Below are positions 33,001 to 51,000 of a DNA stretch of 64,000 nt, one piece after another. The position numbers were made by a program. How positions within the stretch are numbered: position 1 is the first letter of the stretch; every line of letters starts with the position of its first letter. This DNA is from Mytilus edulis. Taxonomy: Eukaryota. The stretch spans positions 93,930,001-93,994,000 of the forward strand of contig NC_092345.1 in assembly GCF_963676685.1 (NCBI RefSeq), written 5' to 3'.

Positions 33001-36000
33001 AGTCAGAGTTCAAAATTTAAATAGATTGATTTACTGTGTGGATCATGCGTTCATCAATCAACCATTCTTTTGCTCTCTCTTTACAAGTTTTTTAGTCTGC
33101 CAGATGCTTGTAAATATTCACATTTCAGTGAGTGCTTGCATATAATATATCCCAGTGAACTTGATATAAAGGATACTACCGCAAGTAGAAGATATAATTC
33201 ATATCTTGATCTCGTCTTCGATATTGTCACAGATCTAGAATCTAAGACAAACGTAATAGTTTTAGCTTTCCAATTGTCAATTCACCCCGATTCATCGTCC
33301 ACTATATAACTTTTATTTTGTTTCCTAATGAACTGTTGCTAATAAGAAACAAATCCTGTGTTTTCTTGCCGCTTTCTTTACTTCCTTTTGGTTCATGACA
33401 ATTTGGTTTAGGAAGCGATCTCAGCTGATGTCTTGCATTCAACGGGACCCTGTTTTACTGAGTATTATTTTTTGTGGATGTGAGAATGCTATTGAATTTC
33501 CTATTAATCTCAATGTCGGCGGGATGATTCTACTTGCAGGTTGCTTGAGCCTGTTATTTTGGCTTATAGTATATGAGTTCAAAGTTTTCATTTATTTTTA
33601 TTCATTCTGGTCCAAAATATATATCATAAAAATATTTCCTAATCTGTTTAAATTTTCTGTTTTTATAATATTGAATCATTCGAAACACTAGTGTTTTTCT
33701 ACCACTAGTATAGATTACCAAATTTTTATTTGGCACAACTTTTTGATAATTTTTGGTTTTAATGCGTCTCAGTTCACACTTTAATAAGGCCTTTCAACTG
33801 TATTGATAAGAGCGTCACGGACCAGGATTAGGAAGGGAAAAAAACATATTTAGCAAACACATTTATATGCCTGATAACTTTAATGAAGTTTTATAACATT
33901 TACAAAATGTTTGACAATACAAATTGAAACAAAAAGATGGTCCACAACTTATATTCTCTAGAAGCTTTATAATCTAAAAACTGGTTAACATGACACAGAA
34001 TAGATTCTTTCCTATATAAACCGACGATCTTTTTAGAATAAAACAAATAAACACATCATTAATACCAGGATCAAAATTTTATATTTACGCCAAACGCGCG
34101 TTTCGTCTTAAAAAGACTCATTAGTGACGCTCGAATCAAAAAATGTTTGAAAGGACAAATAGAGTACAAAGTTGAAGAGCATTGAGGACCAAAAATTCCT
34201 AAAAGTTTTGCCAAATACAGCTAAGGTAATCTATTCCTCAGATAGAAAAGCCTCAGTATTTCAAAAATTCGAAGTTTTGTTAACAGTTAATTTATAATTA
34301 TGAACATATTATATCAATGATAACGCAAGTCAACACAGAAGTGCTGACAACTGGGCTGGTGATATCCTCGGAAAATCAATCTCCACCAGCAGCGTCATCG
34401 ACCCAGTGGTTGCAAATAAACTCATCATAAATACCAGGATCAAAATATTATATTTACGTCAGACGCGCGTTTCGTCTTAAAAAGACTCATTAGTGACGCT
34501 CGAATCAAAAAAATATAAAAAAGGCCAAATAGAGTACAAAGTTGAAGAGCATTGAGGACAAAAAATTCCTAAAAGTTTTGCCAAATACAGCTAAGGTAAT
34601 CTATTCCTGAGGTACAAATGAGTGAATTTAAAAGACAAAAGGTCATTTCAAGAATAGAATAAAATAAATTTGGTCTTAAAATTAAACTGGTTTTTTTTTG
34701 CTTTGTATAGTTTTGTTAATATTGAAGTAACCTTTTCACTACTATATATCGTAAAACATTTTATAAGACAGTTGTTTTTCACTCGTTTTGTTGTTATGTT
34801 TGATAATTTTTGATTTTGTCCGTTTTTATGGATTTTCTTTTACGAATTTGCCTTGCAGAAGACGGATTCAACAGGGTTACGAAAAATGTAATATTAATTC
34901 TATACATTATGAGTTCCATCGTTCGTTTCGATGGACGTTGCATTGATGTTTGTTCTTTGTTGCACTTCTGTGTTCTGTTATTTCGTTGTTTTTCTCTTAC
35001 AGTTGACGAGTTTCCATCGGGGTTGTAGTTTGTAACCAGGATTTTTTTTTCTCTCAATCGATTTATGACTTTTGATCAGCGATATGCTACTGTTGCCTTT
35101 ATTTGTACCTTTATCTTACCTGTATGATATCAATGTATTCCAACCCATGCTCTGTAAACTCTCGTCTACAATCTGTATTACCCTTTATCTTACCTGTATG
35201 ATATCAATGTATTCCAACCCAAGCCTCTATAAACTCTCGTCTACACTCTGTATTACCCTTTATCTTACCTGTACGATATCAATGTATTCCAACCCAAGCC
35301 TCTGTAAACTCTCGTCTACACTCTGTATTACCCTTTATCTTACCTGTATGATATCAATGTATTCCAACCCACGATCTGTAAACTCTCGTCTACGCTTAAG
35401 AATAACAGTACTATAGTCGTAGCGGAGACAGTAAAACGGAAATATGCGACGGTCAAATAAAAATTGACGGTGTCAACATTTTAACTACAGTACTGTTATT
35501 CCGGTTATAATGCATTACAAAAAAGAAACAATACGTTAGAGCTTGAAAAAATGTATAAATTTGACAAACAGAAAAAATCCACGAAACTTAATGAACAATT
35601 TTGGCGTTAAGGCGTCATGACTGAACGTGACGTCATACAAATGAAATCTTACTAACTGGAGGTTATTAGGTTACCTCTACGATTCAAATTCGGATAAAAT
35701 CACATTAAAACGGCGAATTAGAGTTAAGTGTTGTTTTATTTTCAATACTATTATAGTAATCAAACATTTGTTGATCCATTCAATTCAAAACGGCGGGTCC
35801 CTCTTAAGTCACGCCTGGTCAACTGTGGATTTGACGGTAACTTCTAGCCAATGAAAAAGAGTGTTACATAAAAATTGCATTATAATCTGTATTACCCTTT
35901 ATCTTACCTGTATGATATCAATGTATTCCAACCCAAGCCTCTGTAAACTCTCGTCTACACTCTGTATTACCCTTTATCTTACCTGTATGATATCAATGTA

Positions 36001-48000: not shown

Positions 48001-51000
48001 TTCCAAATTGTAGTTTTGTCTGTACACATAGAAACTATTATGGTGTAAACACAGCCATTTTTGTCAAAGTGTATTGATGAACCTTAAAGACTTTTCATAA
48101 TCCTCTGGTTTTGTCAGATTAATACACAAGTTCAAAAATTTTAGGTTAAATTCCATACTTCATTACCAGAAAAGAAAGTAAAACAAAGTGACGCCAGATA
48201 TTTCTAAGCAAACCTTAGACAAGGGATTTTAATTGGATGTTTTCATTCTAAGAAAATATCAGCTATATCATTTATACAATGCCTTAGCTGATCTAGACTA
48301 AAAAAAAATCATAAATTACCTAAAAAATCTCTTAGTTGATCCTGACTTAGATATCTGTAACTTTTTACTTCATTTGTATTTATATTAAGATCTACATCCT
48401 TTTGGATGAATAATATATAGTCTATTTCACTTTCTCCCCAGATTCCATCTTCTGGTTGGTTACCAGCCTTGTACTGTATCCTAGTCAAATATTTAAAGTC
48501 ATCTACAGAAACCTGGAAACAGAATTAGTTGTTTAATGGAATACTTGTATTCTGAGACTACTATAACACTACTATTTGACTGGTTAGTATGTGAAGTGAC
48601 AAATCTCTGTGTTATAGTAGTCTCAGTTGTATATAATTGCAAATTTGTCTCAGTGAAGTCTTGTTATAAACTTTTAAGTAACAAGGAGACAAATTAAAGT
48701 CAGATCATTTCCTGATAACTCTGGTTAATATTACATCTGGCATTTATAAAATGAAGGTATCTTTCTCCATGGAAATCATCAGTATAAAAATAGTTGGATT
48801 CTGCTGATTATTTATATTTTGGCTAACAAGGTTTTTCATCTGGAATTTTGATGCCAACCCTATATATAAGCACTCTCGTTCATCACAAATGTGTTGTATA
48901 ACTTCTTACTGGTATATACATTTATATTGATATAAATAGTCAAGTTAACTATTCCCAGCTTCTAACAAGGTCATAATCTTGTTGTATATAAATTCTAAAT
49001 GAATGATGTTAACAAAATATGTTTGACCAATTTCAAAATCTAAACTCAGCTTAGACACAAACTTCAAAATATCGTTTTTTAGAGGTTTCAGGTGTTTGAA
49101 AATTACAAATTACAAGAAATTAAAGAATGTATTTACGTATTTCTACAATTATTTTAGGATTCTACATAGGAAGAACAATCCTAAAAAGGATACCTGTTCT
49201 GGTGATATTCCTGTGTTATAGTAGTGAGTTATAGTAGTCTCAGTAAAAGGGTACCTGTTCTGGCGATATTCCTAATTCATGCTTTAATTTCCTCTGAGCT
49301 GCTCTCCTCACACCTATAGCATTTCCTTCCTCTAGTTCTGGGTCTGTATTCAGTGGATGGCTGCAGCAAGTGTTGGTAAAATTATCTACAATTAAAATTC
49401 AATTAGGATGGAATGTAGATTGTCAGGTATGATATGATGATGACAAGCTTCATACAGGTTATAAAATTAAGTTCAGATAAACATGTAAACAAATCAATCA
49501 TGTTCTTGTACAATGTAAGTATGTGTGGAGTATAGTTAATTCTGATCATAATTCAATTTGCAACAATAAGTAGCATACAACATATTATTATGAAACGACT
49601 ACAAATGTATTTAACCAACCATCCATTTATCTAGATCTTTTAATTTTAATAATGCTTGCTCAAAAGTTCAAATACACAATGTAATAATAGTATATAAGAT
49701 TAAAACATTATTCACCAGGAAATGTAATTTTGGCATCAGATCTTTGTTGTAACAGAAGTTGTCCCTCTTGATTAAACAAAAACACACTGAAGGCTCTGTG
49801 GAGCAAACCTGGAAGATTAAACAAAAACACACTGAAGGCTCTGTGGAGCAAACCTGGAAATGTAAAACTGAAACATTTTTACTATTATTAAAAAAAAGTC
49901 AATGCATTAATACCTGTATAATTATTAAAGCAAATTCAAATATGTCAGAATAACAGGATACATGCCTCATCTCTTCTTCTTATGTTTCTTTCATTTTCAT
50001 GGATTGAAAATAAAATGTGTTTTCATGGATGTTTAATTTATGGTTTTGTTATAAAAGTCTGCATATGTGGCAGCAGAAAATTTGTACTTTCTAATTTTTT
50101 TTTTAATTTGGTGACTATTCTATCATGTCTATAGTCAAGTGGTTACATAAATGTATTATGTGCAATTGGTATAATGTTGTAATGAATGACATGAAGTCCT
50201 GTTCAGTGTTGTTATATTAGGAATATTTTACATGTTTTTAGCATTCATTTTATTTAACTACTAGTAACATGAGTGATAAAAAGATGAACTAAAGATCATT
50301 CAAAAAAGGTTACAAATTTTCAAAAGGTAAACACATACAGATAAATAATTTTGTATCTTTATAGCATTTAAAATGAACATCTATTTTAGTCTTGTATGAT
50401 TTTTGATTTATGTTCATTTATATATTTCAGAGTTTAGTATGACATCCATTATCACTGAACTAGTACACATTTGTATTTAGGGGCCAGTTGAAGCACATCT
50501 CTGGTTTAAGACCCATAGGTGGGGTTCGGCTGTTTTCTACTCTATGGTCAGGTTTTTGTCTCTATGACACATTCCTCGTTTCTATTTTAAATTTTGTTGT
50601 TAACTTCTCTGTATTTCATCATACCTTCATTGATATTTTTAAGGAGATGACAATGTTTCTTTGATGCAGAACCTATCTGTTTGTCATTTTCATCTATCAG
50701 GATGCATTCTTCTTTCATTAACTGGACTTGTGTTACATCACAGTTATCTAGGATCCTATCTGATACACCAAGTGGTATCTGGCTAGTGGTCATTACATTT
50801 CTTAAATGAAAACAGTGTTGGTTAAATATCTATTATCTGGCTAGTTGTCATTACATTTTTTAAAAGAAAACTGTGTGGTACAAAAGAATGAAACTTGAAA
50901 TTAATTAACTTTGTTTTTATATTGGCAGTGTCTGCACGTACCCGCATGTGGGTACAAATAGTCAAATAGACATTCGTAGGCTACGCGTACCCACATCCGG

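What the first reader, a model, noticed from the sequence alone, without database searches (positions are those of the whole stretch)
35108..50876. Four splice-site-spanning tandem duplications in two neighbouring housekeeping genes
Seen: AKR exon-4 donor (x12) and IDI1 exon-2 acceptor, exon-3 acceptor and exon-4 donor are each locally duplicated together with flanking exon sequence. Splice boundaries are a small share of this DNA. Inference: either a mutational bias at exon boundaries or survivor bias, since boundary-spanning duplications can be spliced out while intra-exon ones are purged. Either would be a source of new alternative sites and intron sliding. The enrichment is not statistically tested.
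Basis: inference. Interest (0 to 1): 0.7.

Follow-up and report, generated by a model that had tools for sequence, protein, structure and literature searches.

The report
Splice-junction duplications in two mussel genes
Four short stretches that each contain a splice junction have been copied next to themselves in two neighbouring mussel housekeeping genes; each event is of a kind already known from other animals, and this one window cannot show whether their clustering at junctions is more than luck.

Summary
The window matches Mytilus edulis models of an aldo-keto reductase (GalDH-like) gene and IDI1, both on the minus strand.

- **AKR exon-4 donor:** a 75-nt unit (63 nt exon + 12 nt intron) repeated 12 times. 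All 12 copies keep the donor motif. A 492-bp insert splits the array.
- **IDI exon-3 acceptor:** a perfect 45-nt tandem duplication, in frame. RefSeq models exist with and without the resulting 15 residues.
- **IDI exon-2 acceptor:** a 43-nt copy after a 15-nt filler. The copy has lost its AG.
- **IDI exon-4 donor:** part of a 61-nt insertion stitched from nearby sequence.

Only two of the four are strictly tandem.

In an unbiased list of local repeats, 4 of 19 events span one of 28 junctions. Nominal P runs from below 1e-5 to 0.09, depending on the null. The window was chosen after the pattern was seen, so enrichment is suggested, not shown.

The most likely reading is ordinary slippage or break-repair duplications that are tolerated because the real sites still work. 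The closest precedents are human minisatellites whose first unit spans an exon-intron boundary (F7, CBS, IFI6-16, LMNB2, PDGF). This is a new member of a known kind. A genome-wide test and RNA data are needed.

The parts
36433..36594 (-). AKR (GalDH-like) exon 4, 162 nt, phase 0 at both ends. Its last 63 nt plus the first 12 intron nt form the first repeat unit.
   Evidence: Pfam Aldo_ket_red E=3.7e-08 on this exon alone. 55 of 55 residues identical to M. edulis XP_071158143 (P0063). AG before and GT after the exon.
35886..36500 (-). Proximal block of the 75-nt array, 8.2 copies. Copy 1 holds the authentic donor (G of GT at 36432). Pseudo-donors are at 36357, 36282, 36207, 36132, 36057, 35982 and 35907.
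   Evidence: TRF period 75, 98% matches, score 1174. Copy table. AAAGG precedes the unit in the exon and also ends the unit, read directly.
35394..35885 (.). 492-bp insert that splits copy 9 of the array. Unclassified.
   Evidence: The sequence interrupts the 75-nt register. No second copy in the window. No Rfam family in 27000-53000. An 18-nt hairpin lies near one end.
35108..35393 (-). Distal block of the array, 3.8 copies, with pseudo-donors at 35343, 35268, 35193 and 35119.
   Evidence: TRF period 75, 95% matches. Copy table.
31919..32049 (-). AKR exon 5, the acceptor partner of the exon-4 donor. The intron between them is about 4.4 kb and holds the array.
   Evidence: tblastn of P0012 and P0063. 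AG and GT flanks.
50625..50800 (-). IDI1 exon 2, 176 nt.
   Evidence: tblastn of P0001 and P0040. AG and GT flanks. All 12 Mytilus models share the exon-2 residues from MT...SQIP onward, and 11 of 12 also carry the NV before them; P0046 starts at that M.
50776..50876 (-). Exon-2 acceptor duplication. The true copy is 50818..50776 (18 nt intron + 25 nt exon). A 15-nt filler lies at 50833..50819. The upstream copy at 50876..50834 sits in intron 1 and reads AA where the true copy has AG.
   Evidence: 43 nt, 91% identity, 58-nt spacing. Sequence read. No template found in the window for the filler. No AG at the homologous position of the upstream copy.
49716..49808 (-). IDI1 exon 3 as in the models without the insertion. 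With the upstream acceptor it extends to 49853.
   Evidence: P0040 (X3) maps to 49809..49717 at 100%. P0001 (X2) maps to 49854..49717 at 100%. Pfam NUDIX E=3.1e-4. The best PDB matches are human IDI1 chains.
49770..49859 (-). Exon-3 acceptor duplication: two identical 45-nt units, each 6 nt intron (ttccag) + 39 nt exon, in frame.
   Evidence: TRF period 45, 2.0 copies, 100% matches. Family D1. One open frame runs through both copies.
49255..49385 (-). IDI1 exon 4, 131 nt.
   Evidence: tblastn. AG and GT flanks.
49184..49273 (-). Exon-4 donor duplication. The true copy is 49273..49245 (19 nt exon + 10 nt intron). A 32-nt spacer lies at 49244..49213. The pseudo-copy at 49212..49184 keeps CAG|GT.
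   Evidence: 29 nt, 93% identity, 61-nt spacing.. Sequence read.
48552..48627 (-). Hairpin element in IDI intron 4. Its upstream arm is the likely template for the spacer of the exon-4 donor duplication.
   Evidence: The 16-mer CTGAGACTACTATAAC occurs 3 times in the window, all in this intron, against 0.01 expected. Spacer pieces of 17 and 15 nt match 48627..48611 and 48621..48607 exactly. Inverted repeat I1.
47738..52572 (-). IDI1 coding span: exon 1a 52572..52508, exon 1b 52458..52424, exons 2-4 as above, exon 5 48512..48320, exon 6 47874..47738.
   Evidence: The ends of exon 1a were set by eye from the flanks printed.
28065..39259 (-). AKR coding span as mapped: nine exons, 39259..39153, 37662..37517, 36594..36433, 32049..31919, 30520..30418, 29801..29670, 29184..29102, 28858..28772 and 28155..28065. 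The upstream exon coding MTTK was not located.
   Evidence: Four borders were shifted by 1-5 nt by eye from the flanks printed.

Best explanation
These are four independent small insertion-type duplications of ordinary mutational origin, in a Mytilus edulis AKR (GalDH-like) gene and its neighbour IDI1.

**How each arose.**
- **AKR donor.** A 75-nt segment bounded by the 5-nt microhomology AAAGG was duplicated by slippage. It then grew by unequal exchange or conversion into a 12-unit minisatellite, and was later hit by a 492-bp insertion.
- **IDI exon-3 acceptor.** A recent simple 45-nt tandem duplication.
- **IDI exon-4 donor.** A 61-nt patchwork insertion of the break-repair, template-switching type. 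It copies about 29 nt from just upstream and two overlapping pieces from a hairpin 600 nt downstream.
- **IDI exon-2 acceptor.** A 43-nt copy plus 15 nt of filler.

**Why they persist.** They do little harm.
- On the donor side the first, authentic donor keeps its exon context. The copies lie in the intron, and any use of them meets a stop codon within 3-5 codons.
- The exon-2 acceptor copy has no AG.
- The exon-3 acceptor copy is intact and in frame, so it acts as an alternative acceptor that adds 15 residues.

**Why they sit at junctions.** Their coincidence with splice junctions is mainly chance in a window picked for it. Removal of copies inside exons adds to it, and so does slower decay of the exon-anchored copy.

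**Shown:** the anatomy, the exon borders, the stop codons, the templated pieces, and the models with and without the 15 residues.

**Inferred:** the mutational pathways, which sites are used in RNA, and neutrality.
For: **Anatomy and borders.**

**AKR array.**
- AAAGG lies at both unit ends (read).
- Copy variants are shared among non-adjacent units: CTT or CGT at the same site in copies 1, 2, 6, 8 versus 3, 4, 5, 7.
- An insert lies inside copy 9. This fits an old, evolving array.
- All 12 units read QVR* after the exon part.

**IDI exon-4 donor.**
- Read-through after exon 4 gives VPFY*.
- Spacer pieces of 17 and 15 nt match 48627..48611 and 48621..48607 exactly. The motif is confined to this intron: 3 matches against 0.01 expected.

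**IDI exon-2 acceptor.** The copy lacks AG at the homologous site.

**IDI exon-3 acceptor.** The 15 residues are present in 2 of 12 Mytilus IDI models (M. edulis X1 and X2). They are absent from M. edulis X3, from the other M. edulis assembly's model, and from 8 models of four other species.

**Other junctions.** None of the other 24 junctions has a nearby copy above background. The next best scores are 14 and 11 or less, against a background 90th percentile of 11.

**Precedent.** Human minisatellites whose first monomer spans an exon-intron boundary usually use only the first donor, or the first two or three (PMC1557585, abstract and Introduction).
Against: **The clustering is stronger than a uniform model predicts.**
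- Within the two gene spans, all 4 short-range events (spacing 100 nt or less) are at junctions. Only 3 longer-range repeats (spacing 164-369 nt) lie in about 14 kb of intron.
- Event placement gives P=0.011-0.030 for the two genes and 0.003 for IDI alone.
- Multiplying the four per-event probabilities gives about 3e-4.
- With a 120-nt radius, only 0.1% of 2000 intron control positions have a copy, against 4 of 28 junctions.

**All four segments are mostly exonic.** They carry 63, 25, 39 and 19 exon nt against 12, 18, 6 and 10 intron nt. Random placement would not predict this.

**Other limits.**
- Neutrality of the exon-3 event is doubtful. The AlphaFold models are weak (17-sequence alignment). 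The isoform with the insertion scores lower: mean pLDDT 65.0 against 69.4 and pTM 0.61 against 0.70. It also loses the N-terminal strands.
- No RNA data were available to show which sites are used.
Confidence: 0.68

Rival explanations
1. A real mutational hot spot. In Mytilus, exon ends are preferred sites for breaks or polymerase template switching during transcription, chromatin handling or replication. Short duplications would then arise there more often than in deep intron.
For: - 4 of 19 local-repeat events span a junction, against 0.70-1.17 expected (P 0.004-0.022).
- In IDI, 3 of 3 events span a junction, against 0.45 expected (P 0.003).
- Short-range copies are nearly absent from the introns of these genes: 0.1% of 2000 positions.
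- Three events lie within 1.7 kb of one gene.
- At least two different repair signatures (simple tandem, patchwork) hit the same kind of site.
Against: - There is one window, and it was chosen because of the pattern.
- The point-based test with a 400-nt radius is not significant (P 0.066-0.088).
- The other 24 junctions show nothing.
- No mechanism was tested.
- The ages differ (100%, 98/95%, 93% and 91% identity), so this was not one burst.
Confidence: 0.17
2. Assembly artefacts. The array length and the perfect 45-nt duplication would be errors of long-read assembly or polishing, or a rare haplotype, and not a feature of the species.
For: - The 45-nt copies are 100% identical.
- Outside this assembly's own RefSeq isoforms, 0 of 9 models carry the 15 residues.
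- A search with the long plus-strand frame through the array found nothing in the protein collection: 3 candidates, none scored. That says little, because such a frame is unlikely to be called as a protein.
Against: - The array copies carry 2-5% differences in a patterned way and hold a 492-bp insert, which collapse or stutter errors do not produce.
- Events 3 and 4 have diverged (91% and 93%) and have spacers.
- RefSeq lists isoforms both with and without the 15 residues. The evidence behind those models was not visible here.
Confidence: 0.06
3. Selected function. The copies would be kept because they regulate splicing. Options are a cluster of 12 strong U1 sites in the AKR intron, a regulated alternative acceptor in IDI, and an intron-bridging helix that hides the IDI pseudo-donor.
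For: - All 12 donor motifs are intact over 16 nt, while other unit positions vary.
- Both exon-3 acceptors have pyrimidine-rich tracts (0.70 and 0.75).
- The minimum-energy and centroid folds of IDI intron 4 pair the motif just after the true donor with an arm about 40 nt before the exon-5 acceptor. This loops out the pseudo-donor (z=-3.3 against 20 shuffles).
Against: - With only 2-5% divergence, an intact 16-mer in 12 copies is not surprising.
- The 15 residues appear in no other species' model and lower the model confidence.
- The helix follows from copying a hairpin arm and was not tested for conservation.
- There are no expression data.
Confidence: 0.06

Closest known systems
Human minisatellites whose first monomer spans an exon-intron boundary: F7 intron 7 (37 bp, 5-9 repeats), IFI 6-16 intron 2 (25 pseudo-sites), CBS intron 13 (15-20 repeats), LMNB2 (100 bp, 10-15 repeats), PDGF intron 4 (81 bp, 16-18 repeats). 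Source: PMC1557585, abstract and Introduction read.
   Same: - The AKR array is a head-to-tail array whose first unit is the real end of an exon plus the start of the intron.
- The donor is therefore repeated identically down the intron: 12 of 12 copies here.
- Unit size (75 nt) and copy number (12) fall in the same range.
- The protein models use the first donor.
   Different: - It is in a bivalve and in a different gene.
- The unit is mostly exon (63 of 75 nt), whereas F7 has 4 of 37.
- The array is split by a 492-bp insert.
- Copy-number polymorphism and silence of the pseudo-donors were not tested here.
Tandem genomic duplication as a source of new introns, intron sliding and alternative sites. 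Sources: Yenerall and Zhou 2012, PMC3443670, passages read. Hellsten et al. 2011, PMC3265369, abstract. Lehmann et al. 2010, PMC2891723, abstract. Gao and Lynch 2009 is known only from a reference list, and the paper is not held.
   Same: - A short tandem duplication supplies a second splice signal next to the first.
- The IDI exon-3 event gives two usable acceptors 45 nt apart, and both appear in gene models.
   Different: - The classic model duplicates a purely exonic AGGT and creates a new intron.
- Here an existing junction is copied, no intron is born, and no border has moved relative to four other Mytilus species.
Templated insertions and small tandem duplications left by polymerase-theta end joining or replication template switching. 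Sources: PMC8654963 and PMC7368036, seen only as search listing and start of abstract.
   Same: The IDI exon-4 donor event is a 61-nt insertion made of exact copies of nearby sequence (17 + 15 + about 29 nt from within 650 nt), with a 2-nt overlap between pieces.
   Different: The pathway is inferred from the scar alone. The 15-nt filler of the exon-2 event has no template in the window.

Membership tests
Boundary-spanning minisatellite (F7 intron 7 type) | Head-to-tail array of a 10-100 nt unit | tested here: met
   TRF period 75, 8.2 + 3.8 copies, 98% and 95% matches.
Boundary-spanning minisatellite (F7 intron 7 type) | The first monomer contains the authentic exon-intron boundary | tested here: met
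   The exon 36594..36433 is 100% identical to P0063 residues 90-143 and is followed by GT. Copy 1 of the array ends with that donor.
Boundary-spanning minisatellite (F7 intron 7 type) | The donor sequence is reiterated unchanged in the intron | tested here: met
   12 of 12 copies carry ACAG|GTAAGATAAAGG.
Boundary-spanning minisatellite (F7 intron 7 type) | Only the most upstream donor(s) are used in RNA | not testable with these tools
   No RNA data. All 9 Mytilus protein models join ...IIQ or ...IVQ directly to VHDMEF. That fits use of the first donor but is model-based.
Boundary-spanning minisatellite (F7 intron 7 type) | Copy number varies between alleles (VNTR) | not testable with these tools
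   No second haplotype, reads or other bivalve assembly could be reached.
Alternative 3' splice sites born by tandem duplication | The duplicated unit includes the AG and part of the exon, and both copies are intact | tested here: met
   Two identical 45-nt units, each with ttccag + 39 exon nt.
Alternative 3' splice sites born by tandem duplication | Both sites are used in transcripts | tested here: inconclusive
   RefSeq isoforms X1 and X2 contain the 15 residues and X3 does not. The evidence behind those models was not visible.
Intron gain by tandem duplication of an exonic AGGT | A new intron appears between the original and the copied AGGT inside a former exon | tested here: not met
   All introns involved are shared with the models of four other Mytilus species. 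The copies lie in or next to existing introns.
Templated-insertion repair scar | The inserted DNA consists of copies of sequence close to the break | tested here: met
   Exon-4 donor event: 17-nt and 15-nt exact matches to 48627..48607, plus a 29-nt copy of the flank. Exon-2 event: the 43-nt flank copy is met, but the 15-nt filler has no template.
Templated-insertion repair scar | Dependence on polymerase theta or fork template switching | not testable with these tools
   Would need genetics.
Type 1 isopentenyl-diphosphate isomerase (Nudix fold) | Sequence match to the family, tested exon by exon | tested here: met
   NUDIX on the exon-3 frame at E=3.1e-4 (21.2 bits, cutoff 21.1); the exon-4 and exon-5 frames fall below cutoff. 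Exon 3 matches human IDI1 chains 2icj and 2dho at E=4e-12. Exon-internal residues are 100% identical to M. edulis IDI1-like models.
Aldo-keto reductase family | Sequence match to the family, tested exon by exon | tested here: met
   Aldo_ket_red at E=3e-11 and 3.7e-08 on two exon frames; a third is at 0.0011, below cutoff; the fourth shows nothing. Relatives are named GalDH or L-galactose dehydrogenase-like by their sources.

The most novel reading that the evidence does not exclude
In mussels, exon ends are genuine hot spots for short slippage and template-switch duplications. The genome would then keep seeding spare donors and acceptors next to working ones. The IDI exon-3 event would be an alternative acceptor caught at birth, and the AKR array a donor copy that ran away into a minisatellite. 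The strikingly exon-heavy make-up of all four copied segments would then be a mark of the mutational process and not of selection.
Probability: 0.15. Interest if true: 0.7.

Novelty: new member of a known kind. Interest (0 to 1): 0.3.

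Why it matters
Taken singly, these events are tidy invertebrate examples of things known from human genes and from the intron-evolution literature.
- The AKR array is a donor-spanning minisatellite.
- The IDI exon-3 event is a freshly duplicated, in-frame acceptor that gene models already treat as alternative.
- The IDI exon-4 event is a patchwork repair scar sitting on a donor.

They give natural test cases for how a spliceosome outside vertebrates chooses among identical sites.

The larger claim is that junctions attract duplications. 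If true, it would bear on how alternative sites and shifted introns originate. One window cannot carry that claim.

Tried and rejected
**Independent copies of the AKR array.** I searched the protein collection with the 227-aa plus-strand frame through the array. There were 3 candidates and none scored. This is uninformative, because such a frame is unlikely to be called as a protein.

**Other bivalve genomes.** So 'specific to this assembly?' and the dating of the events by orthologous loci stayed unchecked.

**The 492-bp insert.** There is no second copy in the window, no Rfam family, and no clear terminal inverted repeats. It remains unclassified.

**The 15-nt filler of the exon-2 event.** Only chance-level matches of 12 nt or less were found.

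**Transposon target-site duplication as the origin of the exon-4 donor copies.** Rejected. The copies are 29 nt long, and the spacer is two direct partial copies of one hairpin arm, not an element with two ends.

**Repair from spliced cDNA.** Rejected. Every copy carries 6-18 nt of intron.

**Other genes in the window, to enlarge the junction set.** Pfam on 10 further long frames gave only two hits below cutoff: RVT_1 at E=0.008 and Sp38 at E=0.025. Junctions outside the two genes are therefore unknown, and the whole-window test may undercount them.

**Structure models of the two IDI isoforms**. Both have low confidence because the alignment has only 17 sequences. I use them only as a weak hint.

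**Miscellaneous.**
- A first PDB search used the wrong frame and found nothing. It was repeated in frame.
- Gao and Lynch 2009 is not held.
- Supplementary files were not needed and were not opened.

Full report
**What the window is**

The window holds no N and is about 31% G+C. Exon-sized frames on the minus strand were searched one at a time.
- Three of four AKR frames hit Aldo_ket_red, two of them above the cutoff.
- Three of five IDI frames hit NUDIX. One is at the cutoff and two are below it.

Two exon queries, searched among longer proteins, found Mytilus proteins.
- The first is IDI1-like isoform X2 of M. edulis (P0001, 97% identity).
- The second is an uncharacterised AKR of M. trossulus (P0012, 94%). 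Its cluster includes proteins that their sources name GalDH.

tblastn of database proteins against the window maps the exons. Every match that stays inside an exon is 100% identical to the M. edulis RefSeq models P0001, P0040 and P0063. The window is therefore M. edulis or something indistinguishable from it, and it is not human.

All full-length comparisons use database proteins as returned.

**Gene models**

Both genes lie on the minus strand.

Nine AKR coding exons were mapped between 39259 and 28065.

IDI has two alternative first coding exons (52572..52508 and 52458..52424), followed by exons 2 to 6.

All borders have AG and GT. Four of them I moved by 1-5 nt by eye, from the flanks that one search printed. 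This gives 28 junctions.

**The four events**

(1) *AKR exon-4 donor.*
- The 75-nt unit is the last 63 nt of the exon plus 12 nt of intron. It occurs 8.2 + 3.8 times.
- All 12 copies keep a 16-nt donor motif. All read Q-V-R-stop after the exon part.
- AAAGG precedes the unit in the exon and also ends the unit. This 5-nt microhomology could have primed the first duplication.
- A shared variant (CTT or CGT) is scattered over non-adjacent copies. Copy 9 is split by a 492-bp insert with no relative in the window.

(2) *IDI exon-3 acceptor.*
- This is a perfect head-to-tail 45-nt duplication, with 6 nt of intron and 39 nt of exon per unit. It has no flanking microhomology.
- It is in frame. One open frame runs through both copies.
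- Both acceptors have pyrimidine-rich tracts (0.70 and 0.75). The nearest upstream AG is at -16 and -25 respectively.

(3) *IDI exon-2 acceptor.*
- This is a 43-nt copy (18 nt intron + 25 nt exon) at 91% identity, separated from the true copy by a 15-nt filler.
- The upstream copy reads AA where the true site has AG. The filler has no template in the window.

(4) *IDI exon-4 donor.*
- This is a 29-nt copy (19 nt exon + 10 nt intron) at 93% identity, with a 32-nt spacer.
- The spacer is two overlapping exact copies, of 17 and 15 nt, of the upstream arm of a hairpin about 600 nt further down the same intron.
- The whole 61-nt insertion is therefore a patchwork of nearby sequence.
- The pseudo-donor keeps GT. 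Reading on from exon 4 gives VPFY-stop.

Only events 1 and 2 are tandem in the strict sense.

**Is the coincidence with junctions more than chance?**

I listed every same-strand local repeat in the window with spacing 8-500 nt, an exact seed of at least 10, and a score of at least 20. This gave 65 segments in 22 clusters. I merged them into 19 events.

Four of the 19 events span a junction with at least 3 nt on each side. Exact placement probabilities give the results below. The two expected values and two P values per row come from two treatments of arrays: as a founder pair, or as their whole span.

| Universe | Observed | Expected | P |
|---|---|---|---|
| Whole window | 4 of 19 | 0.70 / 1.17 | 0.004 / 0.022 |
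| Two gene spans | 4 of 7 | 1.08 / 1.62 | 0.011 / 0.030 |
| IDI alone | 3 of 3 | 0.45 | 0.003 |

A point-based test asks how often a 40-mer has a copy scoring at least 20 nearby. Four of 28 junctions do. The outcome depends on the search radius and the control set.

| Radius | Control set | Controls with a copy | P for 4 of 28 |
|---|---|---|---|
| 400 nt | 1500 intron positions, array excluded | 5.5% | 0.066 |
| 400 nt | 3000 window positions | 6.1% | 0.088 |
| 120 nt | 2000 intron positions | 0.1% | printed as 0.0 |
| 120 nt | 4000 window positions | 3.0% | 0.009 |

I chose the 120-nt radius after seeing the data.

The other 24 junctions score 14 or less.

So there is a nominal excess, and its size depends on the null. 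None of these figures allows for the window having been flagged because of the pattern. Junctions of unannotated genes elsewhere in the window are unknown.

Survivor bias can explain the lack of copies inside exons. It cannot explain an excess over intron. Slower decay of the exon-anchored copy can explain at most about a two-fold excess. That last figure is my inference and was not computed.

**Other species and isoforms**

Twelve named Mytilus IDI models were aligned.
- Two carry the 15 extra residues: M. edulis X1 and X2.
- Ten do not. These are M. edulis X3, the model from the other M. edulis assembly, and eight models from M. galloprovincialis, M. trossulus, M. californianus and M. coruscus.

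With the 100% identity of the two copies, this fits a recent event, perhaps limited to one allele. Protein models cannot show what the other genomes contain.

The nine AKR models all join the first donor to exon 5.

**Consequence of the 15 residues**

Exon 3 matches human IDI1 structures with its second copy in the native place.

AlphaFold models from a 17-sequence alignment are weak.
- The isoform with the insertion has mean pLDDT 65.0 and pTM 0.61. Residues 30-88 are below pLDDT 50. The second copy forms the native strand.
- The isoform without it has mean pLDDT 69.4 and pTM 0.70. Its N-terminal strands are present at pLDDT 62-70.

This hints that the insertion is not harmless, and no more than that.

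**Comparison with what is known**

PMC1557585 (abstract and Introduction read) describes human minisatellites whose first monomer spans an exon-intron boundary. The genes are F7, IFI 6-16, CBS, LMNB2 and PDGF.
- In F7 only the most upstream of several identical donors is used. This is explained by 5'-to-3' scanning.
- In IFI 6-16 and CBS the two pseudo-sites next to the authentic donor are used as well.

The AKR array meets the three structural criteria of that class. Use in RNA and copy-number polymorphism could not be tested.

Tandem duplication as a source of new introns, sliding and alternative sites is established (PMC3443670 passages; PMC2891723 and PMC3265369 abstracts). Here no intron was gained and none has moved.

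The rule that the first AG after the branch point is preferred comes from my own knowledge and from the listing of PMC1431707 (not read). By that rule an acceptor-side copy is not silently spliced out.

Templated insertions and small tandem duplications are hallmarks of polymerase-theta end joining. I saw only the listings and the starts of the abstracts of PMC8654963 and PMC7368036.

I found no paper on such events in Mytilus among the 12 listed for one search. That single search does not show there is none.

**Verdict**

Each event is an ordinary duplication scar of a known kind, and the AKR array is a new member of the F7-type class.

The proposed enrichment is suggestive in this window but unproven. 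The survivor-bias half of the interpretation cannot by itself produce it.

The following stayed unchecked:
- other bivalve assemblies;
- raw reads;
- RNA evidence;
- the closed collections.

Noticed in passing
window 48513-49254 (-), IDI intron 4: The minimum-energy and centroid RNA folds pair the motif just after the true exon-4 donor (about 49243..49218) with the hairpin arm at 48578..48552, about 40 nt before the exon-5 acceptor. This loops out about 640 nt, including the pseudo-donor. The z-score is -3.3 against 20 shuffles. It could favour the real donor, but it may simply follow from the copied hairpin arm.
   Followed up: partly
window 10708-11024 and 13475-13770: Two arrays of a 21-nt unit (12.3 and 11.3 copies) have consensus units that are reverse complements of each other. 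Each has a 16-nt array beside it, and they lie about 2.5 kb apart. This looks like a mobile element with terminal inverted tandem arrays.
   Followed up: no
window 6329-6452 and 7512-7627: Two arrays of a 29-nt, largely palindromic unit, about 4 copies each, lie 1.2 kb apart.
   Followed up: no
window 56063-57311: A satellite block has a 162-nt unit (3.7 copies, 89%) followed by 126, 135 and 261-nt periodicities.
   Followed up: no
window 45246-45944 (+): A frame between the two genes has a weak reverse-transcriptase match (RVT_1, E=0.008, below cutoff). It is probably a decayed retroelement.
   Followed up: partly
window 35394-35885: The 492-bp insert inside copy 9 of the AKR array has an 18-nt hairpin near one end (35400-35417 with 35484-35501). 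It has no second copy in the window and no Rfam match. Two bases of the repeat unit are missing at the insertion point.
   Followed up: partly
window 52424-52572 (-): IDI has two alternative first coding exons about 50 nt apart, beginning MRVNFL... and MDSTF... Both join exon 2 at the duplicated acceptor.
   Followed up: partly
window 9126-9434 (-) and 9445-9568: A proline- and glutamine-rich frame with PPPY, which has no Pfam match, may be the first coding exon of another gene. A 61-nt x 2 duplication (97%) lies about 90-210 nt upstream of its first ATG. Whether that duplication touches a junction is unknown.
   Followed up: no
protein accessions: The AKR and IDI models carry adjacent accession numbers in M. 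coruscus, M. edulis and M. galloprovincialis. This suggests the gene pair is neighbours in all of them. It is inferred from the numbering only.
   Followed up: no
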